Below are positions 6,764 through 60,667 of a DNA stretch of 64,000 bases, piece after piece. The notes under the pieces are model-generated. The model did not search any database, was not told where the DNA came from, and worked only from the letters and a program-made list of their open reading frames with translations. The first letter of the stretch is position 1; the number at the start of each line of letters is the position of its first letter. This stretch comes from an uncultured Bacteriovoracaceae bacterium (GTDB taxonomy: Bacteria > Bdellovibrionota > UBA2394), in the NCBI GenBank assembly GCA_964598565.1, contig CAZRCG010000006.1, forward strand, positions 37,624 through 101,623, written 5' to 3'. The translations under genes and the position numbers were made by a program.

Positions 6764-7780
6764 GTGGGGTCTGATCATACGCCAACCAATTCGGAGTCAA
6801 TGAAGAGCACAACTATTGACGGCAATGCCATTGAAAAGCAACTTGACGAAGACGACAAAGTTCCTGAACTAAAAAAAATTGATCGAGATTTTAGACGCAT
6901 GATTTTGCTGAGCCTCGCGAAGGCAAACGATGATAATCCGTATCTCATCCTCGACTTAAAGGTAGGCGTTTCGATTGAAACCGTTCGTTTGCGCTACCAC
7001 GATCTTTCTCGGTCGCTCCATCCTGATAAGCATTACCGTAAGGAACTTGGCCCCTACAAGCGCAAGCTCGAAAGTTTGTTCAGTCGCATTCAGAAGGCTT
7101 ACTCCAAACTGAAAGACCCCTACTCTAAGGAAGCTCTCGATAAACTTCTGAAGCTTAAAGATACACCGGCCAAAACCAGACCGATTCAAGGCGACGGCTC
7201 CACGTTCAAAGCCTCGTCCAAGCCGAAGCCACCCACGCAGTTATCGAAAGAGATGGAGCGATGGGGAAAAGCAGAAGCCGCTTACAAGAAGGGCCTTGAT
7301 TTTGAAAAGAACGGCTTTGCTTGGGACGCTTATATGCATTTTGTAGAGGCCGTCAAATTAGAACCTAAACGAGACACTTATAAGGCGGCTCACCAAAGAA
7401 TTCAAGCCGCCGCCTTTCGAGAGAGATCTCAAAGAGAAATTCAAGAATTGAAAAATGAGATTACTTCCTCAGGCGCTTCTCAGGCCATTTTGCGAAAATC
7501 GGAAGAACTCTTGCGACTCGAACCAGAGTCTCTGGATGCTAAAATTATTTTTAGTCGATGTATTGTCGAACGAAAAATGGAAGATCGCTACCACGAAGCC
7601 GAAGTCTTGTTGCAACGCTTAAAGTCGGCTCGTCCGCAAGATAGTGATCCGTGCTTATGGCTTGCACGGCTTTATGAAAATCGGGGCGAGAAAAAGGCGG
7701 CTATGAAAGAAGCTAAAGAGGCTCTGAATAGAAATCCAAAAAACTCGTCGGCTGAAAAACTCATTCAGCGATTGAAATAA
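6764..7780 (+). CDS. J-domain (DnaJ-like) co-chaperone with TPR-like C-terminal repeats
   Basis: J-domain with HPD tripeptide (LSRSLHPDKH); helical repeat-rich C-terminal half; not a canonical DnaJ (no Gly/Phe or zinc-finger region). Confidence 0.75.
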   Translation: MGSDHTPTNSESMKSTTIDGNAIEKQLDEDDKVPELKKIDRDFRRMILLSLAKANDDNPYLILDLKVGVSIETVRLRYHDLSRSLHPDKHYRKELGPYKRKLESLFSRIQKAYSKLKDPYSKEALDKLLKLKDTPAKTRPIQGDGSTFKASSKPKPPTQLSKEMERWGKAEAAYKKGLDFEKNGFAWDAYMHFVEAVKLEPKRDTYKAAHQRIQAAAFRERSQREIQELKNEITSSGASQAILRKSEELLRLEPESLDAKIIFSRCIVERKMEDRYHEAEVLLQRLKSARPQDSDPCLWLARLYENRGEKKAAMKEAKEALNRNPKNSSAEKLIQRLK

Positions 7781-21261: not shown

Positions 21262-21839
21262 TTAAAAGAGATTCTAAAACGCGTTCTCATTTCGCTATTT
21301 TTTCCTACGGGATTGCTGTGCCTGTAGTCGTGGCGCTGGGCCTACTGGGTTTAACGGGATGTGCCGCCCATCAAGAACCTGTTCGTACATCAGATGCCCT
21401 CAATTTTAAGCGCATTTTTCTGCCGTTCACCTCTGTCACAAAAGCAACTCGCGACAGCCTTCTGTGGATCGAGGGCATGGAGCTTAGAGTAGAAGATATG
21501 GCCCGAGGTCTCTTTGTAACCGAGTGGCAAAACAATTCACCTGACAATCGCTTCAGAATCACCCTTCGAATTCAACAAGAGTTCTCATCCAGTGGGGAAA
21601 GCAGCATGATCTCTGCGCATGCTGAAGAGCAGGTTTTGATCAACAATAGCTGGCAAGAGGTACCCTCGTCGGGACAATGGGAGAAAGATATCATGAACGC
21701 CATTGAATCGAGACTCGTATCACGCTCGCCAGGCACGGGGCCAGACGCAGGCAGACATTTAAGCATAGGGACCGGTGCAGGGCCAGATATCGAGGCCCGC
21801 CCCATCCATACTAATCCTACCAAGAGGGCGCATGACTGA
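21243..21839 (+). CDS. Putative lipoprotein (hypothetical); start uncertain
   Basis: Signal peptide with lipobox-like LLGLTGC; no recognised domain. Confidence 0.5.
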   Translation: MDYQSLIKRDSKTRSHFAIFSYGIAVPVVVALGLLGLTGCAAHQEPVRTSDALNFKRIFLPFTSVTKATRDSLLWIEGMELRVEDMARGLFVTEWQNNSPDNRFRITLRIQQEFSSSGESSMISAHAEEQVLINNSWQEVPSSGQWEKDIMNAIESRLVSRSPGTGPDAGRHLSIGTGAGPDIEARPIHTNPTKRAHD

Positions 21840-23505
21840 GAAGCCAGGCGCTCCACTGCCACCTCCCCCTCAAGCACCGCAGGTTTTTGGACGTTACCAA
21901 ATTATAGAACCGCTGGCCAAGGGCGGTATGGCTCAGGTCTATCGAGCCAAATCCACTCAAGGCCGAATTTTCACTCTCAAGAAAATTTTGAAGGATTATT
22001 CAGACAATCCTGATTTTGTAAAAATGTTTTTGGAAGAAGCCAAGCTCTCCCTGTCGATGAAACATCCTCAGGTGGTTCGCGTATTAGACTTTGGACAAAT
22101 TGAAGAGTCTTACTTTTTAGCCATGGAATACGTCTTTGGCAGAGACTTAAGCGCGGTTCTTAAAAAATCAGCCGAGCTTAAAATTTTTATACCCATCGAT
22201 GTGGTCTGCAATATCATTTATCAGTGTTGTTTAGGTTTGCACTACGCTCATACCCTACAAGATACGTTTGGGAATCCGCTCAATATCGTTCACCGAGATA
22301 TTTCTCCTCCGAATGTGCTCGTGAGCTACAACGGCGAAGTAAAAATTCTCGATTTTGGCATTGCCAAAGCGGTGAGCTCCTCGCGACGGGAAGAAACGCG
22401 AAGTGGCGTTCTAAAAGGCAAATTTTCGTATATGTCTCCGGAGCAAGCCAGCGGCAAACCGCTCACCGCTCAAAGCGATGTATTTAGTTTAGGAACGGTT
22501 TTTTATGAGCTTCTCACCTCGAAGAATCTTTTCTACCGCCCCGATGAGTTAGAAACCCTAGAGGCCGTGAAAAAGGGAGTCATTCCACCCATTCGAAAAA
22601 TTCGAGGTGATGTAACGGCAGGTCTTGAAAAAATTGTTTTGAAGGCTTTGGCCGCTAAAACAAAAAATCGGTATTCGTCGGCCGCTGAGATGAGTGAAGA
22701 CGTTCGACTTTTTATGCACGAGCATTATTCGCATAGCGACGCGCGTATGACGGCTCGTTTTTTGAGAAAGCTTTTCTCTCAAGACTTTGAGGTTAGAAGC
22801 CCCGTGGCAATCAGCGAAGGCTGGCAAGATATTTTAGATGTAGGCGGCTTAGATGAAGACCTTCTTCTCGACGTTTCAGAGCCGGGTACCGAAACACAGT
22901 CGCTTCGACCCCTCGTTCGCCCGCATCAACTTCAGTGGCATGAGAAGCTTATTTATGATCCTCATATGGTGAGACGTATTCAAACGGGCTTTCTACAGTT
23001 CATTCTCTTGGTGGGTGTATTTTTAGCGTCATTCATGAGCTACGATTATATTCGTAGGTGGCAGGATGAACCTCTGACAACGAATCAAGTGGTCGTGGCG
23101 CCGATTGACTCACTTACACCTTCTGCCTCTCCTGCAGCCGTCGGCACCTTTCAATACTGGAAGAGTCAGGGAGAAAATCATGAGGCGCAGAAGAACCTCG
23201 AAGCCGCCCTACAAAGTTATAAGCGCGCTCTTGAAATCAGCCCCTTTGACGAAGACTTGCTGACGCGTGTCGATTTCTTGGAACTTGCGACCGGGGCCAT
23301 CACCTCATCGTGCGAGCGCTTGATGCGATCGACTAAATTGGCGACTCGAGAGCGTTTACTATCCGAGGCTTACTGCTTGCATGCCCAAGGCTTTCGAATG
23401 CGAGCACTCACAGCCTATAGCCAATTTATTTCTCGATTTCCTGAAGATCCTTTGGTGCCGGCGCTGCAACTGGCCCTCGCAGAACTAAAACGAAATCAGC
23501 CCTGA
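21832..23505 (+). CDS. Eukaryotic-like Ser/Thr protein kinase with C-terminal transmembrane segment and TPR-like region
   Basis: Kinase subdomains: AKGGMAQVYRA, HRDISPPNVLV, DFGIAKA, SYMSPEQ; hydrophobic segment FLQFILLVGVFLASF; start refined to ATG at 21832. Confidence 0.85.
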   Translation: MTEKPGAPLPPPPQAPQVFGRYQIIEPLAKGGMAQVYRAKSTQGRIFTLKKILKDYSDNPDFVKMFLEEAKLSLSMKHPQVVRVLDFGQIEESYFLAMEYVFGRDLSAVLKKSAELKIFIPIDVVCNIIYQCCLGLHYAHTLQDTFGNPLNIVHRDISPPNVLVSYNGEVKILDFGIAKAVSSSRREETRSGVLKGKFSYMSPEQASGKPLTAQSDVFSLGTVFYELLTSKNLFYRPDELETLEAVKKGVIPPIRKIRGDVTAGLEKIVLKALAAKTKNRYSSAAEMSEDVRLFMHEHYSHSDARMTARFLRKLFSQDFEVRSPVAISEGWQDILDVGGLDEDLLLDVSEPGTETQSLRPLVRPHQLQWHEKLIYDPHMVRRIQTGFLQFILLVGVFLASFMSYDYIRRWQDEPLTTNQVVVAPIDSLTPSASPAAVGTFQYWKSQGENHEAQKNLEAALQSYKRALEISPFDEDLLTRVDFLELATGAITSSCERLMRSTKLATRERLLSEAYCLHAQGFRMRALTAYSQFISRFPEDPLVPALQLALAELKRNQP

Positions 23506-23567: not shown

Positions 23568-25130
23568 TTACGGCTGGATCACCTCTATAAGGCGCGCCGC
23601 ACGTTCAGGACTAAAGCCGTGAAAAACGGGTGAGTCGGCAGGGCCTACGTTCGAGGAGTAGCCGATGATATCGTGAGAGGCGGGCAGTGGCTTGATACCC
23701 GAAAAAATCCATTGAGATTTTTGAGGCAATTCCTGGGGTGATTCTTGAGACGATTCTTGAGGAGCTTTTGAGCCCCCCGCAGGCTTAGGCCATGGGCTCG
23801 AAACCACCGTCTCTTTAAACTCAACCAAAAGACCTCGGTCGAATTGTTGGCTATTATTCTTAACAATGATTCCGTAGGCACGACGGCCTGACCCATCATC
23901 TTTCGAAGGCTGCGAGATCATCTCGGGTCGACTCACAATTTCAACTCCCGGATACCCCGCATTTAGCAAATGCCTATTTAGGGACTCCCATGACGCCCCC
24001 ATGGCTTTCCCGACTTGCGCATGAAACGGAGTTGTCATGACGTGAATCATTTCTGTCTGAAGGGCCTCTGAAATAATTTCACGTTGCTGAAGGTCGTTTG
24101 ATTCGGCGGCAAGAGCCCAAGCGTTCAGTTCAGACTCTAAAGACTTAGAACCTAACTGATGTATCAGAGAACCTCCGGCGAGCAGGCCGGCTGCAAGACT
24201 CAGGCCTTTAAGACGAGACCCACAAGAACGAAAATCTGAATAACTTCTCCACTCGGAGCCACTCATCTCTCGAGATGCTCGCAGCACCTGTCGACGTTCT
24301 TGAAAACTCCGAACCGTTTGTCTCAAATGGTTTCGATAGGTCTTTTCACTTGAAAGTGTCCATGAGCCCGCTTCGATGGCACTCTGCCTTTTTGCACCTA
24401 GTGCTTCGACGGCATTGATGGTCTGTTCCCACGGCTTCAAGATAAGTGATCCCACACGACCATAGTCTTTTTCAAAGGCTTTCTTTATTGAGACCAACAT
24501 CTGATTTTGTCGGCGCGCCGCATGAAGAGTCTGTTGAAATGCGGGCGACTGATTGCGAATCAACGATCTATCAGGCGCCGATAATTTTTTAGAGGTCATC
24601 CATTCTTGTATCTTCGATTCTTGAAGGCCCCCACTCGACAGGCTAAGGAGCCTGGATGATCTTAAACCTGCGTTTTGAAAACTGGGGGCCAAATTAGTTT
24701 TGGACGATAAGAACGTTTTCAGTTTCTGAACAGCGAACGGAACTGCCGCCAATACAAGAAGACTCTCGGTAAGTGTCACGACATCCAGCGAATCCCCATA
24801 GCGCTGTAAGACCGACGAATTATTCCACTCTTGTATTTTGGCCTGATAAGCTTGCGGCGATCGTTCGTAGACTTGAGCCGTCACCTCCGACGAAAGCTCT
24901 AAAGGACTCTGTTGGAGAGCGCGTTCGATGAGGCGTATCTCCGTGGGCGACCAAGAATCATCGGCTACCGAGGCTTGCAGTAAAATGGCCATGAAGACAG
25001 CGAAACCTACGGTAAGGAGACGCAAAAATGGCTGCGATAATTTGCACGCCGATAAGCAGGTTTCTAACGACGTACACAAGCTAAAGATCATACGCTCTAT
25101 ATAGAGAGCAAAGACTGTGCCAAATATCAA
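23568..25130 (-). CDS. Hypothetical protein, low-complexity Ser/Gln-rich, probably secreted or membrane-anchored
   Basis: Long ORF (520 aa) with N-terminal hydrophobic segment; no recognisable catalytic motifs. Confidence 0.45.
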   Translation of the reverse strand: MIFGTVFALYIERMIFSLCTSLETCLSACKLSQPFLRLLTVGFAVFMAILLQASVADDSWSPTEIRLIERALQQSPLELSSEVTAQVYERSPQAYQAKIQEWNNSSVLQRYGDSLDVVTLTESLLVLAAVPFAVQKLKTFLSSKTNLAPSFQNAGLRSSRLLSLSSGGLQESKIQEWMTSKKLSAPDRSLIRNQSPAFQQTLHAARRQNQMLVSIKKAFEKDYGRVGSLILKPWEQTINAVEALGAKRQSAIEAGSWTLSSEKTYRNHLRQTVRSFQERRQVLRASREMSGSEWRSYSDFRSCGSRLKGLSLAAGLLAGGSLIHQLGSKSLESELNAWALAAESNDLQQREIISEALQTEMIHVMTTPFHAQVGKAMGASWESLNRHLLNAGYPGVEIVSRPEMISQPSKDDGSGRRAYGIIVKNNSQQFDRGLLVEFKETVVSSPWPKPAGGSKAPQESSQESPQELPQKSQWIFSGIKPLPASHDIIGYSSNVGPADSPVFHGFSPERAARLIEVIQP

Positions 25131-25264
25131 TTATCTGTGAGCGCACCCTAAAGATGATCAGTCCAATTGAAATTGGTCTAGAGCACGTATTGCACGCAAT
25201 TGCATAACCAGGATTTTGAGGAGATGGCCCTGTAGCGCCCTTATAAATAGCCTGGCCTTTAAAC

Positions 25265-25335
25265 AAGGCGGCACCCGGATTTGAACCGGGGATGAGGATT
25301 TTGCAGACCCTTGCCTTACCACTTGGCTATGCCGC
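25265..25335 (-). tRNA. tRNA-Cys (anticodon GCA)
   Basis: Manual fold of the minus-strand sequence GGCGGCAUAGCCAAGUGGUAAGGCAAGGGUCUGCAAAAUCCUCAUCCCCGGUUCAAAUCCGGGUGCCGCCU: 7-bp acceptor stem, anticodon loop CUGCAAA, T-loop UUCAAAU, U discriminator typical of tRNA-Cys; no encoded CCA. Confidence 0.9.
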
Positions 25336-25426
25336 CATCATCTTGCGCGAGGACCAAGCCGTCTCGATTGAGTCGCCATGGTTCGTCGCCATCAAACCCC
25401 TAAAACTACGCACTACTCTCTTCGTC

Positions 25427-25765
25427 CTACGCACCGTCTTCTTCGTCGACAAGTGAAATGATTCGCTGTCGATCGGACTCTTTGAGGTCTAAAAACTGAA
25501 TACCAAAGCCTGCCGGCAGAGAGCCATAACTATGTTCGAGAGAATGCCGCACTTCTCCCGTTACTTCAATGGGGTGACCATCAGGCAACTCAAACGATAC
25601 ACGAATTAGCGCGGCTAAAGGGGGCGGAAGTAAGGTCTGCGCATAAAGCCCCCCTTCCCCAAGCGTGGTGGTTAAACAAGAACGGGCTTCTCCGTCCACC
25701 ACAAATTTAATAGGAATTGAGAGATCTCGACGTAAGTAACGTCGTTTAATTGACGGAGCATCCAT
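25427..25765 (-). CDS. PilZ-domain protein (putative c-di-GMP receptor)
   Basis: RRYLRR (RxxxR-like) and TTLGEGGLY (DxSxxG-like) motifs in a 112-aa protein. Confidence 0.65.
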   Translation of the reverse strand: MDAPSIKRRYLRRDLSIPIKFVVDGEARSCLTTTLGEGGLYAQTLLPPPLAALIRVSFELPDGHPIEVTGEVRHSLEHSYGSLPAGFGIQFLDLKESDRQRIISLVDEEDGA

Positions 25766-25799
25766 AGGATGAAGTTAGACGAGAGTCTTTTGTTCTGTC

Positions 25800-26345
25800 A
25801 TGATCAAAAAGGTGCTGCCTCTTCTCATCGATGGCTATAATCTTCTGCATGCTGTCTTTAAAGATACATCGTCCACGACCCTTGAAGCCCAGCGTGGAGC
25901 TCTTTTACGGCAATTGAGCGCCTACCAAGCCACCAAAGAGGTGGCGATCACCATCGTCTTCGACGGTTCTGAAGAGGCGGCCGTCTTTCAACCTCGAGAC
26001 CGTTATGGCGCGATTGACATCGTTTTTACTCACCGAGGCGTTACGGCCGACGACTGGATTATTGGGGAATGTGAGGCAAAGCCTGGCGCTTTTGTGGTGG
26101 TCACGAACGATCGTCAGATTGCCACCACCGTCGAGACGTATTCGTGCTGGGTCGTATCGTGCCAAGAATTTTTGTCGAGACTTCGCGCCAATCTCGAAGA
26201 AAATGACGACAACTTCATTGCCTTCGAAAAACTAGAAATGGAAGACCTGCCGCTTTATCCAAAGGTATCGACAAAAAAAAGAGGCTCCGCAAAAAAGCTT
26301 CCTAAACGAGCGCGTAAGAAACAGCAGTTTCTCAATCGACTCTAG
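25800..26345 (+). CDS. NYN-domain protein (YacP/Rae1-like predicted ribonuclease)
   Basis: N-terminal LLIDGYNLLHA motif typical of YacP-like NYN domains; basic C-terminal tail. Confidence 0.7.
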   Translation: MIKKVLPLLIDGYNLLHAVFKDTSSTTLEAQRGALLRQLSAYQATKEVAITIVFDGSEEAAVFQPRDRYGAIDIVFTHRGVTADDWIIGECEAKPGAFVVVTNDRQIATTVETYSCWVVSCQEFLSRLRANLEENDDNFIAFEKLEMEDLPLYPKVSTKKRGSAKKLPKRARKKQQFLNRL

Positions 26346-26637
26346 GGGAAAAATTCTCTACGGCTGCCAGACGAAAAACCACGATGAGAAGTCATCCCCA
26401 AGCTCAAACGAGTGGTCAGCGACCAAACCCACCCATGGGCCCTAGAATGACTCCAACTTGTCATTCGTTTATGAAATCGTCATAACGATTCGTGGGAAGA
26501 AAGAAGTACGCACCCAGCTCAGAAAAAGAGGAACAACCAGGGCATCTCCCCATTTGGATCGATGGCCATCGTGAGCGAGGCAGATACATCACCATTTGCT
26601 TGTTGATTGCCTCATTGATTACACACGTCAACCGTCA

Positions 26638-27447
26638 CTACTTCGCCTTGTGCGAAGCCATATAGGGCCACTCCGAAAAACTGAGTGAAACAGGATTTAC
26701 CGGACTACCGTCGCGACGGACCTCAAAATGTAAATGGGGTCCTGAGGTACGACCACTCTGACCCGCGCTTCCCACTATATCCCCACGATCTACCGAAGCT
26801 CCGCGACGCAGACTCAGCTCTGAAAGATGCGCGTAAAGACTCGACCAGCCATCACCATGGTATACGACCACGGTCTTTCCATAGCCCGACATCGTACCCG
26901 AAAAAACAACGCGACCCGGTAAGGTCGAACGCACCGGCGTCCCGTAAGCCGCACGAAGATCGAGTCCCTCATGCACGCGACCCCGTCGTAGGCCGAAACC
27001 TGAAATAATTCTTGCGTTCTCAACGGGCCAAAGCCAACTGGCTTGCTTTTTGATGCGAGGATAGAGCGTGCGATGCGAGGCCCATGGAATTTCTTTGAGG
27101 TCCGCACGCTCCTCGACGGTGACTGTGGTGGGAGCGATGACTGTGGAGGAATCTGCACCAGAAGCGGTACCTGGCGTAGAAGTCGTGGTTGACGTCGAAG
27201 GTACAGTCGAAGATGCAATCGCCGTGGCCGCTTTCGATGCCGATCGCTTGGAAGATGTCTTTGACGAGTTACCCTTGGAATTAGACGAAGGTGTGATAGC
27301 CGACAGACCATCGTTCAAACTTTTAAAGAAAATTTGGCGAGCATTTTCTCGTTCACGAGAGACCCAGGGGGCGGAAGCTTGAGAACCGTTTTGCCAGGGC
27401 GTCGCGGCCACAAGAAAGGTGAGACAGAGAGAAAACATCTGCCTCAT
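26638..27447 (-). CDS. M23-family metallopeptidase with signal peptide and Ser/Thr-rich linker
   Basis: HEGLDLRA ... GYGKTVVVYHGDGWSSLYAHLS ... GPHLHFEV motifs of the M23/LytM fold. Confidence 0.85.
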   Translation of the reverse strand: MRQMFSLCLTFLVAATPWQNGSQASAPWVSRERENARQIFFKSLNDGLSAITPSSNSKGNSSKTSSKRSASKAATAIASSTVPSTSTTTSTPGTASGADSSTVIAPTTVTVEERADLKEIPWASHRTLYPRIKKQASWLWPVENARIISGFGLRRGRVHEGLDLRAAYGTPVRSTLPGRVVFSGTMSGYGKTVVVYHGDGWSSLYAHLSELSLRRGASVDRGDIVGSAGQSGRTSGPHLHFEVRRDGSPVNPVSLSFSEWPYMASHKAK

Positions 27448-27565
27448 TGTAACTCATTCCAAAACATGACCTGCAGTGTTAAACTGGCACTATATTTGTC
27501 ACTTTTCTGGCATCCTTCTTGCCGCTCTTATGGAAGTGAATGAGCCTCACCCCCCAAGTTTTGTA

Positions 27566-27892
27566 TCAAAAAGGCCCAAGCTCTTGAGAAAATGCCGCTG
27601 AGTCAGAATGCGGCCTAAGAAACTGGACACCCACTTGATAGCCCTGAGCGACACGACGACAATAGGTGACAACCGCCTGACGTTCTTGCTTTTGAGACAT
27701 TTCGGCACCGCGGCGCAGCGTGAAACAAATCAGCAAGGACATTCCAATGGGAAAGTCGGCGTCTGATAAGAGCTGAAGGCCTCCCGCCCCTAAATCTTGA
27801 GCTGTGGCATATTCAATGCCTCGAGAAGAAACAATACGTAGGGCCTCAGAAAACTGGCTCCGAGGAAACGATCTTTTTGCGCTGTATGCCAT
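27566..27892 (-). CDS. PilZ-domain-like small protein
   Basis: KRSFPRSQF and AQDLGAGGLQL resemble PilZ RxxxR and DxSxxG motifs; weaker match than the other two PilZ proteins. Confidence 0.55.
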   Translation of the reverse strand: MAYSAKRSFPRSQFSEALRIVSSRGIEYATAQDLGAGGLQLLSDADFPIGMSLLICFTLRRGAEMSQKQERQAVVTYCRRVAQGYQVGVQFLRPHSDSAAFSQELGPF

Positions 27893-27973
27893 AGAGGGCT
27901 TTATTAGACTATTATTTCAAGGTTCACAAGCCCCCCCATACCGTTAACGACTAAGGCCCTTTACAATAAAAGA

Positions 27974-28927
27974 GTGAACAAGGGACGCTTTATTCCACCC
28001 ATCGACTCTGAAGACAGCTCGGTCGACGAAGAATCACAATTCATGGAACGAACGATTGTTAGTCCCATTGAGTCGATTGATCCTATTGCTGCAGAAACGA
28101 CTCCCGCCCTACTTGTGATTTCGGGCCCGCAGATTGGTCGATCGTATCCCCTCGAAAAAGAAGAATTCATGGTCGGTCGAGGCGAACACTGCGATTTGAT
28201 GGTAGAAGATGATCTTGTTTCCAGACATCACTGCAAGCTTGTCATTACCAAAGAGAAAACGCTTTTAGTCGATTTGGCTAGTACCAATGGGACTCTCGTC
28301 AATGGCCGCAAAACCGATCGCTGCATCCTCAATGAGGGGGATCAAATTCAAGTAGGTTCCTCGTTTATATGTAAGTATCACCTACAAGAAGATGTTCAAC
28401 GAAAGTTTCTGGCAGAGCTATTCGACGCCGCCACGAAAGATTTTTTAACGGGAGCCTACAATAAGAGATTTTTTCTAGACCGCCTTCAGGGAGAATTCTC
28501 GTATATTCTGCGCAACGAAGGCCTCATGTCGATTATTGTATGCGATCTCGACCATTTCAAATTGGTCAACGATACCCACGGCCACTTAGCGGGCGATTTT
28601 GTCTTGAAGAAAGTGGCTCAGCATCTCACCCAGAACACGCGACGCCATGATATTGTGGCGCGATTTGGGGGTGAAGAATTTGTGATTTTCTTAAGAGATT
28701 GTGATCACAAACAAGCCTTCATTTTGGCCGAACATCTTCGACAGGGTATCGACAGGTTGAAACTCATGTTCAATAACAAATCAATTCCTATAACGATTTC
28801 GATGGGCATTGGAACCGTCGATAATGATACGAGGGCTCAGTTTAAGACAATCGAAAACCTTCTGGCCAAAGCGGATGAGAAGCTTTACGAAGCTAAAACT
28901 CAGGGCCGAAATCGAGTTTGTATTTAG
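27974..28927 (+). CDS. FHA-domain diguanylate cyclase (FHA-GGDEF)
   Basis: FHA core (GRSYPLEKEEFMVGRGEHCDLMVEDDLVSRHHCKL ... NGTLVNG) followed by GGDEF domain with intact GGEEF active-site motif. Confidence 0.88.
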   Translation: MNKGRFIPPIDSEDSSVDEESQFMERTIVSPIESIDPIAAETTPALLVISGPQIGRSYPLEKEEFMVGRGEHCDLMVEDDLVSRHHCKLVITKEKTLLVDLASTNGTLVNGRKTDRCILNEGDQIQVGSSFICKYHLQEDVQRKFLAELFDAATKDFLTGAYNKRFFLDRLQGEFSYILRNEGLMSIIVCDLDHFKLVNDTHGHLAGDFVLKKVAQHLTQNTRRHDIVARFGGEEFVIFLRDCDHKQAFILAEHLRQGIDRLKLMFNNKSIPITISMGIGTVDNDTRAQFKTIENLLAKADEKLYEAKTQGRNRVCI

Positions 28928-34311: not shown

Positions 34312-36201
34312 ATGTCTGAAGAAAAAACCGACGTTCTCCAACTGACCGAACCCATCTCTCCCACTCTTGAGACGACCGATCGTCAGACGTCGAATCCAAA
34401 AGAGCATCCCGGTGACAGAGATAGCAACTTGATTTCTCACCGTGAGCGATTGCGAGAAAGTTTAGCGGACCGCAGCATTCATATTGATTCAGCAGAAGAA
34501 CTCGATCTAGGCGAGCTACTCATTAAAGCCGAATTCATTAACGAAGACCAACTGGCTCAAGCCTTGCAGATTCAGCAAGAACGCGGCGGCTCCACTCGAC
34601 TCGGTGAAGTTCTCATGCAAATGAAGGCGATCACCGAAGCCCAACTTCTTGAGTTGCTAGCCAAACAACTGGGCATACCATTTGTACGATCCATTCACGA
34701 CCGAGATATTCCCGAAGAACTCATTAAGAAAGTTCCGACCCGTTTCGCAAAAAAATTTCAGATGCTTCCTATAGCCTACCGCCATAATGGAGTTTTGGTG
34801 GTCACCTCCGATCCGCTCAACGCGACTGCGCTTGATGATATTCGACTTCTTTTGGAGATGCCGGTGCAAGTAGCGGCCACCCCGAGCGCCGTGATTGTAG
34901 AAGCAATCAATCGATCGTACGATCGAGCCAGCACGACCGATACATCGATGGAAGACTTAGGCCAAGATGTTATTGATGACGGCGCACTTCAAGAGCCCGT
35001 CGATCTCTTAGATTCCGAAGATGAGGCCCCAATTATTCGGCTGGTCAATTCGATTCTGTTTAGAGCCGTCAAAGAGCGAGCCAGTGATATTCACGTCGAG
35101 CCCTACGAGCGAGAAGTATCGGTTCGGTTTCGAATCGACGGCAATCTCTACGATATTTTGAAAATTCCAAAGAGACTTCAAAACTCGGTAGGCTCGCGCA
35201 TCAAACTCTTGGGGGCTCTTAATATTGCGGAGAAGCGTTTACCTCAAGACGGTCGCATTCGAATCAAGATCGCCGGCAAGGACGTTGACCTGCGTCTATC
35301 GACCCTGCCGACAGCTCATGGCGAGCGCATCGTTATGCGTATTCTCGACAAATCGTCGATTGTTCTCGATTTGACGAATTTGGGATTTGAAGAGTCTATG
35401 CTTCGTGCGACCGAAGAACTTATCACGAAACCTTTTGGAATCATTTTGGTCACTGGCCCTACGGGCTCAGGAAAAACGACCACCTTGTATGCGGCCCTCT
35501 CAAAAATTAACAAAGAAGATATTAATATTATTACGGTAGAAGACCCCATTGAATACCAATTGCCCGGCATTGGACAAATTCAAGTTAATGAAAAGATCGG
35601 ACTCACCTTTGCGAATGGTCTTCGATCAATTTTACGTCAAGACCCCGATGTGGTGCTCATCGGAGAAATTCGAGATCGAGAAACCGCCGAGATTGCCGTC
35701 CAGGCCTCTCTCACAGGTCACTTGGTTTTATCTTCGATTCACACCAACGATGCCTGTTCATCGGTGACCCGTTTGGTCGATATGGGCGTAGAGCCCTTTC
35801 TTGTATCCACCTCGCTTATTGGTATTGTGGCTCAACGACTCGTGCGCCGTATTTGTTCCGCTTGCCGAATCCCCCATCAAGCGACGAGCGATCAATTGGC
35901 TCGTTTGGGCTTAGACAAAATTCCTTCGAAAGCCACCGTCTACAAAGCCGTGGGCTGCGACGAATGCTATCATACGGGCTACCGTGGTCGAGTGGGTATC
36001 TACGAACTTCTACCCATTGATGATGAACTGCGATCGGTCATTTTAAAGACCCCCGATGCAGTTCATTTACGAAAGTCGGCCATCGCCAAGGGCTTTAAAC
36101 CCATGCGCTACGATGGCCTCTTGAAGATTCTTCAGGGGGTGACCACTATTGAAGAGGTACTGGCCACCACTCAAGAAGACTCTCGTGTTGATTTTGGTTA
36201 A
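34312..36201 (+). CDS. gspE: Type II secretion system ATPase GspE
   Basis: Walker A GPTGSGKTTT, Asp and His boxes, C-terminal CxxC tetracysteine motif (CSAC ... CDEC). Confidence 0.9.
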   Translation: MSEEKTDVLQLTEPISPTLETTDRQTSNPKEHPGDRDSNLISHRERLRESLADRSIHIDSAEELDLGELLIKAEFINEDQLAQALQIQQERGGSTRLGEVLMQMKAITEAQLLELLAKQLGIPFVRSIHDRDIPEELIKKVPTRFAKKFQMLPIAYRHNGVLVVTSDPLNATALDDIRLLLEMPVQVAATPSAVIVEAINRSYDRASTTDTSMEDLGQDVIDDGALQEPVDLLDSEDEAPIIRLVNSILFRAVKERASDIHVEPYEREVSVRFRIDGNLYDILKIPKRLQNSVGSRIKLLGALNIAEKRLPQDGRIRIKIAGKDVDLRLSTLPTAHGERIVMRILDKSSIVLDLTNLGFEESMLRATEELITKPFGIILVTGPTGSGKTTTLYAALSKINKEDINIITVEDPIEYQLPGIGQIQVNEKIGLTFANGLRSILRQDPDVVLIGEIRDRETAEIAVQASLTGHLVLSSIHTNDACSSVTRLVDMGVEPFLVSTSLIGIVAQRLVRRICSACRIPHQATSDQLARLGLDKIPSKATVYKAVGCDECYHTGYRGRVGIYELLPIDDELRSVILKTPDAVHLRKSAIAKGFKPMRYDGLLKILQGVTTIEEVLATTQEDSRVDFG

Positions 36202-47221: not shown

Positions 47222-48457
47222 TTAATCCCAGAGAATACTCTCTTCTGAATAGGCTTTTGTCGCTGAGGACAGCCTCTTTCGATACTCTGGATAACGCAAC
47301 AGAAAATCGAGAATGAGATCGCGTCGCCACTCCAACAAATAAAGATCGGTCTTTGCCATCCAAGTCGACAAAAAATTTCGGCTGCCCAAGTAATCATTCA
47401 AGCCCACAAAATCGCCTGCAATTCTGATATCGCCCGCCCCAGACTCAAGCGATTCTTCTACTCGCCCCTGAACAATAAAGTACAATCGATCGGCGCGCTG
47501 ACCACCTTTCGCTAAAGCACGATCTTTAGGAATATTCGTCGCAAGCGCGGCATCATATAAATCGACCAAGGCCTCTTGAGAGAATGGCTTGAACAGCTCG
47601 TGATCTTTTAAACATGATAGATAGAGTCGCCTTTCGTACATTTGATAGAATCGCTCTTTCAAATGAGGAAAATCGGAAAGCAACGAACGAAAAAGTCCTC
47701 TTTCAAATCGAAGGACGGCCGAAGGGCTCCAGGCGATGACACGACTTTGCCGTTGCACTCCTGAAAAGAAAGTGAGATCTCCAAAAAAATCTTCGGGCTT
47801 CAATGTGATAGAGCCGCTTTCTTTTTGCTTTTCAAGATCGCCTTCCAATACTAAATAAAAAGCATCGGGTTGATCTCCCCTATCAAAGACGATCTGTTCG
47901 GCATGTAGGGTTTTGTAATCTGATCGATGAATCAAAATTTCTAGCTCTTGAGGCTTAAACTGAGAGAATATAGAGAAGGCCCGTGGTGGCGTCACCGGTG
48001 ATAACAAACGGGACATTGAAAAATCCTCTGTCTCAAACGATATCGAGGCCTTAATTTCTTGAAATGGGGTGGGCGGCGGAAGCGTATCATCCGTTTTTCG
48101 AGTCTGACGTCGTTGCCCGAAAGCGCGTGCAAACTGCGACAGCAGGTCTGACGCTTCTACCTCAGAGCCCGCACGCTGACGCAACCAATGATAGACACGT
48201 AGAGCTGCAGGGGCCATCCCCAGCTTGATATACCCTTCACCCGCAAGCTTGGCGTAGTGCAAGGCCTTGTCGTGAATATCAGCGACCTGAGGTGACTCTC
48301 TCTCAAGCAAATAATAAATTTGAGCGAGGTCTTCTGCCAAACGACAACCTTCGACAGGATCATCGGCATCGGCCAGTCGATTACGCATTTCGCTTAACGC
48401 AAACTCCAGATCGCCTTGATCCACCAAAGCTTGCGTTGACTTCAAAACAAAGGCCAC
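47222..48457 (-). CDS. Tandem cyclic-nucleotide-binding (CAP-type) domain protein without recognised output domain
   Basis: Two cNMP-binding-like beta-roll segments (FGDLTFFSG..., GDFVGLNDYLG...) after a helical N-terminal region. Confidence 0.7.
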   Translation of the reverse strand: MAFVLKSTQALVDQGDLEFALSEMRNRLADADDPVEGCRLAEDLAQIYYLLERESPQVADIHDKALHYAKLAGEGYIKLGMAPAALRVYHWLRQRAGSEVEASDLLSQFARAFGQRRQTRKTDDTLPPPTPFQEIKASISFETEDFSMSRLLSPVTPPRAFSIFSQFKPQELEILIHRSDYKTLHAEQIVFDRGDQPDAFYLVLEGDLEKQKESGSITLKPEDFFGDLTFFSGVQRQSRVIAWSPSAVLRFERGLFRSLLSDFPHLKERFYQMYERRLYLSCLKDHELFKPFSQEALVDLYDAALATNIPKDRALAKGGQRADRLYFIVQGRVEESLESGAGDIRIAGDFVGLNDYLGSRNFLSTWMAKTDLYLLEWRRDLILDFLLRYPEYRKRLSSATKAYSEESILWD

Positions 48458-51759: not shown

Positions 51760-52290
51760 ATGGACAAAAGATCCTTTCTTCGGGGTATTTCCGAAGGCAT
51801 TCAGAACTCTGATGAGAGACCGATGCAGGCAGCCTTTCTGCTGTGGGCCGGACTATTTATTTTGGTGATCATTGCCATTTATATCATTCAGCTTAAGCGC
51901 ATGCACTTGAAGCACCTCTGGATTCGGTTGAAAAAACAGTTTCAAGGAGCCTTCGTCACTACCAATCGCTACCGATTAAAAACCGAGGTGACGCTCGAGC
52001 TTCCCGGCTATGATTCTGAGTTGCTTCGCACATCCACCACCAACATGAGTAGCCACGGTATGTTTGTGAAATTGAATCCTCCCGCACAGATGGGTGAACG
52101 TCTGCGCTTTCATTTGTTTTTAGAGACTGGACTCACGATTTCGGGTGATGGAGAGGTGAGATGGGTTCAAGATGGCTGGTCGGAGCACCATCCCACCGGC
52201 ATCGGTATAAAATTTCTTAATATTCCTGCGGAGCAAGAGAATCGACTGCGCCTCTGGATTCAGAAGAAAAAGCTGAAGCGAGCCGCGTAG
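51760..52290 (+). CDS. Membrane-anchored PilZ-domain protein
   Basis: N-terminal TM (AAFLLWAGLFILVIIAIYII), then NRYRL and TTNMSSHGMFV PilZ-like motifs. Confidence 0.6.
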   Translation: MDKRSFLRGISEGIQNSDERPMQAAFLLWAGLFILVIIAIYIIQLKRMHLKHLWIRLKKQFQGAFVTTNRYRLKTEVTLELPGYDSELLRTSTTNMSSHGMFVKLNPPAQMGERLRFHLFLETGLTISGDGEVRWVQDGWSEHHPTGIGIKFLNIPAEQENRLRLWIQKKKLKRAA

Positions 52291-59680: not shown

Positions 59681-60667
59681 CTAGCGTTTTTTATCGACGT
59701 TGAGAAGTAAAATGAAATGCTCGACGATACGAGAATTAAAATGGCCGGCCATTTGCTGAGTGATGATAGAAAAGGCCTCAAAGGGCGTTTTAGCCCGTTG
59801 ATAACAGCGATTCGTCGTCATGGCATCGTAGGCATCACAGATTGAAACGACCTGCGAAACCATTTGAATTTTATCGCCTCGAAGCCCGTAAGGGTAGCCT
59901 ATGCCATTTACCTTTTCGTGATGCTGAAGAATAATATCTTTGCCTCGTTCAGGAATCGGCCGGGCGTGAAGCAAATCAATGCCCCATTCAGGATGCTTCT
60001 TCATGATGCGCCACTCATCTTCGGTGAGGGGCCCTGGTTTATTCAATACGGCCAGCGGCACTTTCGTTTTACCTACATCATGCAAAAACGCCCCTATGGC
60101 CGCTTCTTCCAAGATCTTGCGATCGCGAATTCCAAGTGACGAAAGCAGGCCCAGAGTAAAGGTCATCACGTTTACACAATGGGTATAGGTATAGTAATCG
60201 TGCGACGAAAGAGTGATCATACTTACGAAGGCTTCCGAGTCTTTCGCTAAAAGCTCTATGGTGTGATTCACCACCTTCTTAGTTTTAGTAAACGTCTCTG
60301 AGCTTGAGGGATTCTTAAATATATTTTCAGCAATTCCCGTGGCACACTGATACAGGGCGGATGTTTTCTTGATGAGAGGCGCTTTAGGTTCGCTCAACAA
60401 GCGACTAAGATTGCTCTCCAAAAACTGAAAGTGCTCAATCTCGGTTTCACATAAAATAAACAACTCTTGGGCGCCAAACTCTTGCAGCTTTTCAGCGTCC
60501 TCTGCCGTCCATCGGCTCCCCTTCGCTCGATACACCAAGTAGTTACCCTGATAGAGCATAAAGAGATCTTTATCTAAGATATTGCCCTCTCGATAAAGAT
60601 CGACCGGCACCCGAAAATACTGAGCTCCAGAATCAGCGACTGGAAGGTTTTCTGGAGTCGTGGCCAC
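59681..60667 (-). CDS. HD-GYP domain protein (putative c-di-GMP phosphodiesterase)
   Basis: HD motif (GAFLHDVGK), HHEKVNGIGYP (GYP signature), about 150-aa N-terminal sensor-like region. Confidence 0.85.
   Translation of the reverse strand: MATTPENLPVADSGAQYFRVPVDLYREGNILDKDLFMLYQGNYLVYRAKGSRWTAEDAEKLQEFGAQELFILCETEIEHFQFLESNLSRLLSEPKAPLIKKTSALYQCATGIAENIFKNPSSSETFTKTKKVVNHTIELLAKDSEAFVSMITLSSHDYYTYTHCVNVMTFTLGLLSSLGIRDRKILEEAAIGAFLHDVGKTKVPLAVLNKPGPLTEDEWRIMKKHPEWGIDLLHARPIPERGKDIILQHHEKVNGIGYPYGLRGDKIQMVSQVVSICDAYDAMTTNRCYQRAKTPFEAFSIITQQMAGHFNSRIVEHFILLLNVDKKR

What the first reader, a model, noticed from the sequence alone, without database searches (positions are those of the whole stretch)
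25427..28927. Dense cyclic-di-GMP module cluster: PilZ, NYN nuclease, M23 peptidase, PilZ, FHA-GGDEF
Within 3.5 kb there are two single-domain PilZ proteins, a YacP-like NYN predicted RNase, an M23 peptidase and an FHA-GGDEF cyclase with an intact GGEEF motif. As I recall it, FHA-GGDEF is the architecture of Bdellovibrio DgcB, the cyclase needed for prey invasion. Two more c-di-GMP components (a membrane PilZ at 51760 and an HD-GYP at 59681) and a tandem cNMP-binding protein lie elsewhere in the window, so the region is rich in second-messenger signalling linked to cell-wall hydrolysis.
Basis: partly seen in the sequence, partly recalled or inferred. Interest (0 to 1): 0.45.

Follow-up and report, generated by a model that had tools for sequence, protein, structure and literature searches.

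The report
Conserved DgcB-like c-di-GMP gene block
The five genes are real and form a block conserved across an uncultured group of Bdellovibrio-related bacteria, pairing a phosphorylation-gated c-di-GMP synthase with two small c-di-GMP-receptor-type proteins, a cell-wall peptidase and an RNA-cutting enzyme, but a direct equivalence to the Bdellovibrio prey-invasion enzyme DgcB is not shown.

Summary
All five ORFs pass Pfam thresholds: PilZ, NYN_YacP, Peptidase_M23, PilZ and FHA+GGDEF. The distant PilZ, HD-GYP and tandem cNMP genes are also real.

The block is not a chance clustering. tRNA-Cys<-PilZa<>NYN | M23<-PilZb<>FHA-GGDEF recurs in every orthologous locus long enough to show it. That is 10 complete blocks, counting one with a chemoreceptor gene inserted at the NYN|M23 junction. 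One further genome has the two halves on different contigs. All come from uncultured MAGs labelled Bacteriovoracaceae, Bdellovibrionota or Deltaproteobacteria. FHA-GGDEF genes of about 40% identity elsewhere lack all four partners.

The cyclase has every feature described for DgcB: a conserved tail Thr, FHA phosphothreonine-binding residues, GGEEF and an RxxD I-site. However, it is only 35% identical to Bd0742, does not group with it in a tree, and sits in a different gene context.

PilZb is canonical across its family, but this genome's copy carries S->G in DxSxxG. PilZa is very conserved, keeps RxxxR and lacks D/NxSxxG. The M23 has intact catalytic motifs and a likely signal peptide. The NYN protein is Rae1/YacP-like.

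My best reading is a Ser/Thr-kinase-gated local c-di-GMP module with a cell-wall output. The RNase half is less securely linked. This is a moderately interesting variant of a known kind.

The parts
27974..28927 (+). Tail-FHA-GGDEF diguanylate cyclase, DgcB-like, 317 aa. Features: tail Thr27 (ERTIVSPI), FHA residues GR68-69, S83-R84 and T104-N105, DxLT at 156, RxxD at 223-226, GGEEF at 232-236.
   Evidence: Pfam FHA 63 bits and GGDEF 149.5 bits. Best solved relative is 6hbz (DgcB), full length, E 2e-48. Invariant residues across 25 homologues. Motif positions. Start codon argument.
27566..27892 (-). PilZb, a 108-aa single-domain PilZ. It is the first gene of a PilZb-M23 operon transcribed divergently from the cyclase. 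RxxxR is KRSFPR. The second motif is DLGAGG, where every other family member examined has D/N-x-S.
   Evidence: Pfam PilZ 33.4 bits. Ten orthologues from loci have D[LVI]SxGG. Eighteen library representatives have [DN]xSx[GV]G. The family is small: 26 hits at E<=1e-3 among 1.84 billion representatives.
26638..27447 (-). Exported M23/LytM-type metallopeptidase, 269 aa. It has an N-terminal hydrophobic signal-like segment, conserved PW motifs, a Ser/Thr-rich linker, and a catalytic domain with HEGLD (159), YAH (205) and HLH (238).
   Evidence: Pfam M23 113 bits. Closest solved relatives are Neisseria NMB0315 (3slu) and NGO1686/Mpg (6muk), E about 1e-26. Motifs are conserved in 13 orthologues. 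Positions.
25800..26345 (+). Rae1/YacP-type NYN endoribonuclease, 181 aa, with a conserved basic C-terminal tail (LYPKVSTKKRGSAKKLPKRARKK...LNRL). It is transcribed divergently from PilZa across a 34-nt spacer.
   Evidence: Pfam NYN_YacP 86.5 bits. Only PDB sequence hits are B. subtilis YacP 5mq8/5mq9. AF2 model pLDDT 82; best Foldseek hits 5mq8/5mq9, E 1e-7. D11, D55, D84 and D104 are invariant in 40 homologues.
25427..25765 (-). PilZa, a 112-aa single-domain PilZ and the most conserved protein of the block. N-terminal KRRYLRRD (RxxxR) is invariant. The second motif is T-[LVI]-G-E-G-G rather than D/NxSxxG.
   Evidence: Pfam PilZ 48 bits. 57 clusters in 5.8 billion proteins, all >=60% identical. 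Invariant columns. AF2 pLDDT 83.7 with a PilZ barrel plus C-terminal helix; Foldseek top hits are MotI/DgrA, Alg44 and MapZ.
25266..25336 (-). tRNA-Cys(GCA), 90 nt downstream of PilZa on the same strand. It is a conserved member of the block.
   Evidence: ARAGORN. Rfam tRNA 65.5 bits. Found in the same position in 12 of 13 orthologous loci.
21775..23505 (+). Candidate upstream kinase, peripheral and inferred. It is a Hanks-type Ser/Thr kinase (residues 41-301) with one transmembrane helix (404-422) and a C-terminal TPR region.
   Evidence: Pfam Pkinase 137 bits plus TPR. TM segment. Orthologues of 44-54% identity lie 2-8 kb from the PilZa side in L082, L085, L089 and L093; a truncated Pkinase gene sits in the same place in L110. 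Kinases are enriched near distant FHA-GGDEF genes: 4 of 14 against 0 of 69, p = 5e-4.

Best explanation
The region is a lineage-specific, conserved gene block of an uncultured Bdellovibrionota-type clade. It is built from two back-to-back divergent units.

Unit 1 is a local c-di-GMP module. A DgcB-type cyclase is kept off until a Hanks-type Ser/Thr kinase phosphorylates the conserved Thr27 in its N-terminal tail. The best candidate kinase is the TM-TPR kinase at 21775-23505. The FHA domain then captures the phospho-tail, the GGDEF domains pair productively and c-di-GMP is made. The product then shuts the enzyme off through the RxxD I-site. The nearest receptor is PilZb. It is encoded just across the divergent promoter region and co-transcribed with a secreted, catalytically intact LytM/M23 endopeptidase. 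The output of this unit is therefore peptidoglycan remodelling.

Unit 2 (tRNA-Cys<-PilZa<>NYN) pairs a very conserved PilZ-fold adaptor with a Rae1/YacP-like ribosome-associated endoribonuclease. If PilZa binds c-di-GMP, the same signal would also reach mRNA cleavage and translation.

Shown here: domain identities, motif states, folds, gene order and its conservation.

Inferred: the kinase-to-cyclase step (by analogy with DgcB), any nucleotide binding by either PilZ, and any PilZ-effector contact.
For: Cyclase:
- Full-length best solved match is DgcB 6hbz.
- Tail Thr is present in >=90% of 25 homologues. FHA residues G-R, S-R, S/T-N and GGEEF, RxxD are invariant.
- The DgcB mechanism comes from PMC6733907.

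Kinase:
- An orthologous kinase lies 2-8 kb away in 6 clade loci, counting the window.
- A kinase is directly adjacent in two distant loci, L004 and L088.
- Enrichment near distant FHA-GGDEF genes is 4 of 14 against 0 of 69, Fisher p = 5e-4.

Block conservation:
- M23<-PilZb<>DGC occurs in 11 of 11 loci. PilZa<>NYN occurs in 16 of 16.
- The block is kept in L084, where both flanks differ.
- PilZb-M23 spacers are 9-26 nt in orthologues.
- All four partner families are small and confined to the same clade. PilZa has 57 clusters and the DGC subclade 53 clusters. NYN has 24 close clusters. PilZb has about 20 representatives.
- At least 14 PilZa and DGC hits appear to share a contig, judged by identical longest-contig lengths.

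Receptors and effectors:
- PilZb family members have canonical RxxxR and D/NxSxxG.
- M23 catalytic motifs are intact.
- The PilZa model is a PilZ barrel like the adaptor MapZ.
- The NYN model matches Rae1.
Against: - The clade is narrow: DGC identity is 52-82%. The wider region (GatCAB-aminotransferase-kinase on one side, DUF192-VKOR/DsbA-T2SS on the other) is also syntenic in most loci. Part of the conservation may therefore be plain inheritance.
- The two units can separate. A chemoreceptor gene is inserted between NYN and M23 in L083. The units lie on different contigs in GCA_028287765.1.
- PilZb in this very genome has S->G in the binding motif. PilZa lacks D/NxSxxG altogether.
- M23 is exported while PilZb is cytoplasmic, so no direct regulatory contact is obvious.
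- The kinase is separated from the block by variable genes. It is absent within 8 kb in L084.
- A second-tier NYN homologue (31% identity) has no PilZ neighbour.
Confidence: 0.5

Rival explanations
1. There are two unrelated units that are neighbours only by descent. tRNA-Cys-PilZa-NYN would be a translation or RNA-housekeeping unit. The YacP family has an old link to Cys-tRNA genes. In this reading PilZa is a PilZ-fold protein that does not sense c-di-GMP. Only PilZb-M23-DGC would be a c-di-GMP module.
For: - The split point between NYN and M23 recurs.
- tRNA-Cys is fixed next to PilZa in 13 of 14 loci, counting the window.
- The second-tier NYN homologue sits in a yacL-like PIN-TRAM/ispD/ispF/cysE context without PilZ.
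- PilZa lacks D/NxSxxG in all 47 sequences aligned.
- PilZa is as conserved as the neighbouring housekeeping enzymes.
Against: - The two units are adjacent in 10 of 11 genomes, despite variable insertions elsewhere.
- The PilZa family (57 clusters) and the DGC subclade (53 clusters) have matching, clade-restricted distributions.
- PilZa keeps an invariant KRRYLRxD arginine motif. From my knowledge of PilZ families, non-binding PilZ proteins usually lose it.
Confidence: 0.3
2. The cyclase is the functional orthologue of Bdellovibrio DgcB, licensing prey invasion. The M23 peptidase would be a prey-wall or entry-pore hydrolase released under its control.
For: - Same architecture and the same regulatory residues as DgcB.
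- Homologue labels point to Bacteriovoracaceae and Bdellovibrionota.
- Hobley et al. proposed that DgcB targets regulate hydrolytic, prey-modifying proteins (PMC3271064).
- A T2SS cluster lies 1.8 kb downstream.
Against: - Identity to Bd0742 is 35%, with no specific grouping in the tree.
- The gene context in HD100 is different: an operon with the phosphatase bd0740 (PMC6733907).
- FHA-GGDEF proteins closer to DgcB (L008, L087) lack all four partners.
- No cultured predator appears among the PilZa, NYN or DGC-subclade hits.
- The lifestyle of the organism is unknown.
- The closest solved M23 relatives act on the cell's own wall.
Confidence: 0.15
3. The M23 peptidase opens the cell's own peptidoglycan so that a trans-envelope machine can assemble. 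That machine would be the adjacent T2SS or type IV pili. c-di-GMP would coordinate this through PilZb and the MshEN-type N-terminus of GspE.
For: - The best solved M23 relatives include gonococcal Mpg/NGO1686, which is needed for full piliation (PMC3735123, PMC11980366).
- DUF192-VKOR/DsbA-GspC-GspD-GspE follows the cyclase in 6 loci.
- GspE has a Pfam MshEN domain and two MshEN-like 24-residue motifs.
Against: - The similarity to Mpg is confined to the generic M23 domain.
- The MshEN motifs are partly degenerate: R->D and G->E in the first, G->K in the second.
- The T2SS side is replaced by other genes in L084 and L082.
Confidence: 0.1
4. The block is an anti-phage defence or toxin-antitoxin island, with a NYN/PIN-like nuclease toxin and a kinase.
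For: - The kinase domain matches PADLOC PD-T4-6 and mad6 kinase models.
- The variable region next to tRNA-Cys holds PIN, AbiEii and transposase genes in other loci.
Against: - None of the five block proteins matches any PADLOC model.
- The kinase hits are generic kinase-domain matches.
- The block lies in a housekeeping chromosomal region with even GC content.
- It is vertically conserved across the clade.
Confidence: 0.02

Closest known systems
Bdellovibrio bacteriovorus DgcB (Bd0742; PDB 6HBZ, 6HC0, 6HC1)
   Same: It shares the N-terminal tail with a conserved Thr, an FHA domain with consensus phosphothreonine-binding residues, the DxLT linker motif, the GGEEF active site and the RxxD I-site. 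DgcB is the best full-length match among solved structures.
   Different: Identity is only 35% and there is no specific tree grouping. The HD100 gene lies in an operon with the calcineurin-like phosphatase bd0740 (PMC6733907). Here the gene is transcribed divergently from a PilZ-M23 operon, and no phosphatase was seen nearby.
Single-domain PilZ adaptors (MapZ/PA4608, the Alg44 PilZ domain, the MotI/DgrA C-terminal domain)
   Same: PilZa and PilZb are stand-alone PilZ domains of about 110 aa with an N-terminal RxxxR. The PilZa model superposes on these structures with TM 0.7-0.8.
   Different: PilZa has T-x-G-x-G-G instead of D/N-x-S-x-x-G. The window's PilZb has S->G. Their partners are unknown. 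No solved PilZ matches either one by sequence.
Bacillus subtilis Rae1 (YacP), a ribosome-associated endoribonuclease (PDB 5MQ8)
   Same: It matches the NYN_YacP Pfam family. Rae1 is the only PDB sequence hit and the best fold match. Four invariant Asp residues are shared.
   Different: Identity is about 23-25%. Rae1 is described for Gram-positives, cyanobacteria and chloroplasts (PMC10351889), not for this group. This protein carries a conserved Lys/Arg-rich C-terminal tail. It is paired with a PilZ gene and tRNA-Cys rather than sitting in a cysE-cysS operon.
Neisseria M23B peptidases NMB0315 and NGO1686 (Mpg), and other active LytM-type endopeptidases (ShyA, Csd3, Pgp3)
   Same: The M23 catalytic domain has HxxxD, a catalytic His and HxH. 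The protein is exported.
   Different: The N-terminal region is unrelated. It has short PW motifs plus a Ser/Thr-rich linker, with no LysM or coiled-coil domains. It is co-transcribed with a PilZ gene.

Membership tests
DgcB-type tail-FHA-GGDEF diguanylate cyclases | FHA domain with consensus phosphothreonine-binding residues (DgcB R61, S75, R76, T96, N97) | tested here: met
   Pfam FHA 63 bits. The G-R, S-R and S-T-N-G-T residues are invariant or nearly so in 25 homologues. Positions in the window protein: R69, S83-R84, T104-N105.
DgcB-type tail-FHA-GGDEF diguanylate cyclases | Catalytically competent GGDEF domain (GG[D/E]EF plus metal and GTP-binding residues) with an RxxD I-site five residues upstream | tested here: met
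   GGDEF 149.5 bits. GGEEF at 232 and RRHD at 223. DxD..K..ND, RxxD and GGEEF are all invariant.
DgcB-type tail-FHA-GGDEF diguanylate cyclases | N-terminal tail carrying a conserved Thr (DgcB T14) that serves as the self-ligand | tested here: met
   Thr27 in ERTIVSPI. This Thr is present in >=90% of 25 aligned homologues and in all 11 clade orthologues.
DgcB-type tail-FHA-GGDEF diguanylate cyclases | Specific orthology to Bd0742 (closest relationship, shared gene context) | tested here: inconclusive
   Identity is 35%. Other phyla's FHA-GGDEF proteins are equally close. In the NJ tree DgcB pairs with L008, not with the window clade. The HD100 operon partner bd0740 was not seen here. The reciprocal search against the window organism's genome is impossible with only 64 kb.
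DgcB-type tail-FHA-GGDEF diguanylate cyclases | Phosphorylation-dependent cyclase activity; role in prey invasion | not testable with these tools
   This needs enzyme assays and genetics.
PilZ c-di-GMP receptors (PF07238) | Match to the PilZ profile above the gathering score | tested here: met
   PilZa 48 bits and PilZb 33.4 bits, against a cut-off of 22.5.
PilZ c-di-GMP receptors (PF07238) | RxxxR motif in the N-terminal arm | tested here: met
   PilZa has KRRYLRRD, with invariant K7 R8 R9 L11 R12 D14. PilZb has KRSFPR, and R7/R11 are invariant.
PilZ c-di-GMP receptors (PF07238) | [D/N]xSxxG motif | tested here: not met
   PilZa has T-[LVI]-G-E-G-G in 15 of 16 loci. The window's PilZb has DLGAGG. 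All 10 locus orthologues and 18 library representatives of PilZb have [DN]xSx[GV]G. The PilZb family therefore meets the feature, but this copy does not.
PilZ c-di-GMP receptors (PF07238) | PilZ beta-barrel fold | tested here: met
   PilZa only. AF2 pLDDT 83.7. Foldseek probability 1.0 to the MotI, Alg44, MapZ and YcgR PilZ domains. PilZb was not modelled.
PilZ c-di-GMP receptors (PF07238) | Binding of c-di-GMP | not testable with these tools
   This needs DRaCALA, ITC or similar.
Catalytically active M23/LytM metallopeptidases | HxxxD and HxH zinc ligands plus the catalytic His | tested here: met
   HEGLD at 159, YAH at 205 and HLH at 238. These are conserved in 13 orthologues. Pfam 113 bits.
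Rae1/YacP NYN endoribonucleases | NYN_YacP profile match, Rae1-like fold and conserved acidic active-site residues | tested here: met
   86.5 bits. 5mq8/5mq9 are the only PDB sequence hits and the best fold hits, E 1e-7. D11, D55, D84 and D104 are invariant.
Rae1/YacP NYN endoribonucleases | Ribosome- and translation-dependent mRNA cleavage | not testable with these tools
   This needs biochemistry.

The most novel reading that the evidence does not exclude
The block would be a complete, genetically linked DgcB-type pathway, supplying the components that are still missing for Bdellovibrio DgcB.
- The upstream kinase would be a TM-TPR Hanks kinase.
- The dedicated receptors would be PilZb and PilZa.
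- There would be two outputs. One is secretion or activity of a LytM endopeptidase.
- The other, new for c-di-GMP, is control of a Rae1-like ribosome-associated endoribonuclease through a PilZ adaptor co-transcribed with tRNA-Cys.
Probability: 0.15. Interest if true: 0.7.

Novelty: new variant of a known kind. Interest (0 to 1): 0.4.

Why it matters
For Bdellovibrio DgcB, the activating kinase is unidentified and more than one c-di-GMP target is suspected (PMC6733907). I found no later paper in the library that resolves this.

In this clade a DgcB-type cyclase is physically linked to two private PilZ proteins, an active cell-wall peptidase and a Rae1-like RNase. A receptor-type Ser/Thr kinase lies nearby. 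That gives concrete, testable candidates for each step of such a pathway. It also suggests that c-di-GMP might reach ribosome-associated mRNA cleavage.

If the links are only inherited synteny, the region is an ordinary example of c-di-GMP gene clustering.

Tried and rejected
- **Reference-genome scan.** I scanned genome contigs with the cyclase alignment. No B. bacteriovorus locus and no close clade member were obtained, so the HD100 neighbourhood could not be read directly. I relied on PMC6733907 for it.
- **PDB profile searches.** Profile searches of the PDB sequence set with the PilZa and PilZb alignments gave no hit. The fold search was used instead.
- **Rfam.** I searched the whole window at gathering thresholds, and 25100-28100 at E<=1. 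Only tRNA-Cys was found. There is no c-di-GMP riboswitch.
- **Promoter and terminator scan.** Counts did not differ from shuffled sequence, so I drew no operon boundary from it.
- **292-nt NYN-M23 spacer.** It shows no relic of the chemoreceptor gene inserted at that site in L083. It has no copy elsewhere in the sequences held.
- **Island by tRNA-Cys.** I looked for an att-like direct repeat of the tRNA-Cys end around ORF 23568-25130. None was convincing.
- **PADLOC.** No block protein matched. The defence reading is rejected.
- **Literature.** No paper combines PilZ with YacP, or PilZ, M23, Bdellovibrio and c-di-GMP.
- **PilZ-NYN domain fusion.** I looked for one among NYN homologues. None was listed.

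Full report
**1. What is in the sequence**

ORF listing and Pfam scans confirm the five genes at the stated coordinates.
- PilZ, 25427-25765(-), 48 bits. I call it PilZa.
- NYN_YacP, 25800-26345(+), 86.5 bits.
- Peptidase_M23, 26638-27447(-), 113 bits.
- PilZ, 27566-27892(-), 33.4 bits against a cut-off of 22.5. I call it PilZb.
- FHA plus GGDEF, 27974-28927(+), 63 and 149.5 bits.

A tRNA-Cys(GCA) gene lies at 25266-25336(-), 90 nt downstream of PilZa.

The other ORFs that overlap the M23 gene on either strand have no support and are best ignored.

The cyclase most likely starts at the GTG at 27974. The residues between it and the ATG used by the public gene call ('...EESQFMERTIVSPI') align with orthologues ('EDSQF[LS]ERTIVSPI'). 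There is no other in-frame start codon between the two.

- A PilZ with one hydrophobic helix at 51760-52290.
- An HD-GYP protein at 59681-60667, with HD, HHE and GYP motifs visible.
- A protein with two cNMP-binding domains at 47222-48457.

The window is otherwise ordinary chromosomal core with flat GC content. It holds topA, dnaK, an RND efflux system, efp, gatCAB, a T2SS, heme biosynthesis genes, relA/spoT and gmk.

**2. The block is conserved**

The window overlaps a Logan contig, and its PilZa and NYN proteins also occur on a 168-kb NCBI MAG contig.

The cyclase's homologues fall into a sharply bounded subclade of 53 clusters with 52-82% identity. Scores then drop to 47% identity and below. 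The labelled members are MAGs named Bacteriovoracaceae, Bdellovibrionota, Deltaproteobacteria or Bradymonadales.

I read the neighbourhoods of clade members through three routes: encoding-contig look-ups, a metagenome scan seeded with PilZa, and my own HMMs built from the orthologues.
- The whole order PilZa<>NYN | M23<-PilZb<>DGC is present in the window, L082, L083, L084, L085, L089, L093, L094, L097 and L110.
- Short contigs (L090-L092, L095, L096) show the expected parts of it.
- PilZa<>NYN is adjacent in 16 of 16 loci.
- M23<-PilZb<>DGC is adjacent in 11 of 11 loci.
- tRNA-Cys follows PilZa in 12 of the 13 other loci scanned.

There are two exceptions, and both break at the same junction. 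In L083 a chemoreceptor gene sits between NYN and M23. In MAG GCA_028287765.1 the two halves lie on different contigs. The block is therefore two units.

FHA-GGDEF genes of about 40% identity in other lineages have none of the four partners within 8 kb. These are L002-L011, L017 and L086-L088.

The partner families are all small and restricted to the same clade.
- PilZa: 57 clusters among 5.8 billion proteins, all >=60% identical.
- NYN: 24 close clusters, then a gap.
- PilZb: 26 hits at E<=1e-3 among 1.84 billion representatives.

**A caution on that conservation**

The larger region is also syntenic in most loci. On one side lie gatB, a class IV aminotransferase, DUF3576 and the kinase. On the other lie DUF192, VKOR-DsbA and gspCDE. 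Variable genes are inserted at two places: next to tRNA-Cys, and after the cyclase.

L084 keeps the block while both flanks differ. That is the best single argument for selection on the block itself.

Median identities within the clade are PilZa 66-68%, DGC 56%, NYN 43-44%, M23 41-42% and PilZb 37-40%.

**3. The parts**

*Cyclase.* The best solved relative is 6hbz, matched over the full length at E 2e-48. Meek et al. (PMC6733907) identify 6HBZ as B. bacteriovorus DgcB. They show that its FHA domain binds phospho-Thr14 of its own N-terminal tail to activate the enzyme. They also show that RxxD binds inhibitory c-di-GMP, and they state that the kinase is unknown.

In a 25-sequence alignment the corresponding residues are invariant or nearly so. 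These are the tail Thr, G-R, S-R, S-T-N-G-T, the DxD..K..ND catalytic residues, RxxD, GGEEF and a secondary Arg.

Window positions are T27, R69, S83-R84, T104-N105, R223-D226 and G232-F236. The protein therefore very probably works like DgcB.

Membership as its orthologue is a separate matter.
- I rebuilt the 6hbz sequence from the printed alignment. It is 35% identical to the window protein, 43% to an Oligoflexia MAG protein (L008) and 33-39% to proteins from other phyla.
- A neighbour-joining tree shows the window clade as a tight group that does not pair with DgcB.
- dgcB in HD100 shares an operon with the phosphatase bd0740 (PMC6733907), not with PilZ-M23.

*Kinase.* The ORF at 21775-23505 is a Hanks-type kinase with one TM helix (404-422) and a C-terminal TPR region.
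- Orthologues lie 2-8 kb from the PilZa side in L082, L085, L089 and L093. A truncated Pkinase gene occupies the same position in L110.
- In two distant loci a kinase directly abuts the FHA-GGDEF gene (L004, L088).
- Overall, 4 of 14 distant full-length FHA-GGDEF loci have a kinase within 8 kb. None of 69 GGDEF-only loci does (Fisher p = 5e-4).

This makes the neighbouring kinase a reasonable candidate, but nothing more.

*PilZb.* RxxxR is conserved. All 10 orthologues from loci and all 18 library representatives carry [DN]xSx[GV]G. The window's copy alone has DLGAGG. That is a one-residue change which could weaken binding, or could be an assembly error.

PilZb sits 9-26 nt upstream of M23 in orthologues and 118 nt upstream here.

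*M23.* HxxxD, the catalytic His and HxH are intact in all 13 orthologues. There is an N-terminal hydrophobic signal-like segment, followed by conserved PW motifs and a variable linker.

The closest solved relatives are the Neisseria enzymes NMB0315 and NGO1686/Mpg. Mpg is needed for full piliation (PMC3735123).

*PilZa.* The AlphaFold model (pLDDT 83.7) is a PilZ barrel with a C-terminal helix. It is most like MotI/DgrA, Alg44 and MapZ. KRRYLRxD is invariant, but the second motif is T-x-G-E-G-G.

*NYN.* B. subtilis Rae1/YacP is the only PDB sequence hit and the best fold hit. Four Asp residues are invariant. A Lys/Arg-rich C-terminal tail is conserved.

Rae1 cleaves mRNA on stalled ribosomes (PMC12407103). 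It is described for Gram-positives, cyanobacteria and chloroplasts (PMC10351889).

A second-tier homologue (31% identity) lies next to an AMIN-Amidase_3 gene. Its surroundings are a PIN-TRAM/ispD/ispF/cysE context reminiscent, from my memory, of the B. subtilis yac region. It has no PilZ neighbour.

**4. Interpretation**

I judge the following chain most likely:
1. A Ser/Thr kinase phosphorylates Thr27 of the cyclase tail.
2. The FHA domain captures the phospho-tail and c-di-GMP is synthesised.
3. The product feeds back on the enzyme through the I-site.
4. PilZb senses the signal locally.
5. The output involves the co-expressed LytM-type peptidase.

The first three steps rest on residue-level agreement with an experimentally characterised enzyme. 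The last two rest on gene arrangement only. A cytoplasmic receptor and an exported enzyme also leave the physical link open.

Whether the tRNA-Cys-PilZa-NYN unit belongs to the same circuit is uncertain. Its constant adjacency and matching distribution argue for it. The degenerate second motif, the recurrent split point and the PilZ-less relatives of the NYN protein argue against it.

The rivals are listed separately. The defence-system reading is rejected.

**5. Novelty and verdict**

Cyclases clustered with PilZ receptors are a familiar theme, and the cyclase itself is a new member of the DgcB-like family.

I found no description of this fixed combination: a PilZ-M23 operon and a PilZ-Rae1-like pair next to tRNA-Cys. 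I therefore rate it a new variant of a known kind.

Interest is moderate at 0.4. It offers candidate partners for an open question about DgcB-type signalling, but every functional link is still inferred.

Noticed in passing
window 25266-25336 (-), and the same position in L082-L085, L089-L091, L094, L096, L097, L108 and L110: tRNA-Cys(GCA) lies 15-248 nt downstream of PilZa on the same strand in 13 of 14 loci, counting the window. It may be co-transcribed with PilZa. From my memory, YacP/Rae1 in B. subtilis sits in the cysE-cysS operon, so the NYN family may have an old association with Cys-tRNA genes.
   Followed up: partly
window 34312-36201 (+): The T2SS ATPase GspE has a Pfam MshEN domain. 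It also has two N-terminal 24-residue motifs, DLGELLIKAEFINEDQLAQALQIQ and RLGEVLMQMKAITEAQLLELLAKQ. These resemble the MshEN c-di-GMP-binding motif as I recall it, but are partly degenerate. GspE could be a further c-di-GMP receptor 5.4 kb from the cyclase.
   Followed up: partly
window 23568-25130 (-), and the equivalent position in L082, L083, L085 and L110: The segment between the kinase and tRNA-Cys is variable. The window has a 520-aa protein with no Pfam match and N-terminal hydrophobic segments. Other loci have unrelated large ORFs, a Y1 transposase, a PIN toxin pair or AbiEii. This looks like a tRNA-adjacent insertion hot spot, but no att-like repeat was found in the window.
   Followed up: partly
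window 27566-27892 (-), residue 35: This genome's PilZb has Gly where all 28 other family members examined have Ser in D/NxSxxG. That includes its 59%-identical closest relative. It could be a real loss-of-function drift or a single-base error.
   Followed up: yes
L111 6633-8528 and L112 2135-4030: In another lineage, a YacP-type NYN gene 31% identical to the window's is transcribed divergently from an AMIN-Amidase_3 (AmiC-like) cell-wall amidase. This is a second case of this RNase family sitting beside a peptidoglycan hydrolase.
   Followed up: no
L088 6528-8900 and L004 6031-8855: In two distant lineages a Hanks-type Ser/Thr kinase is immediately adjacent to a tail-FHA-GGDEF gene. This is independent support for kinase-cyclase pairing in this family.
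   Followed up: partly
window 26346-26637 and 27448-27565: The NYN-M23 spacer (292 nt) and the PilZb-M23 spacer (118 nt) are much longer here than in orthologues (4-46 nt and 9-26 nt). No RNA family, repeat or gene relic was found in them.
   Followed up: partly
window 60860-63055 (-), 59681-60667 (-), 63360-63980 (-): A RelA/SpoT (p)ppGpp synthetase-hydrolase, the HD-GYP phosphodiesterase and guanylate kinase lie within 4.3 kb of one another. This is a small concentration of guanine-nucleotide signalling genes at the far end of the window.
   Followed up: no
window 56875-58413 (-) and 6764-7780 (+): There are two DnaJ-domain proteins with TPR repeats. One also gives a weak DUF4388 match. Their function is unknown.
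   Followed up: no
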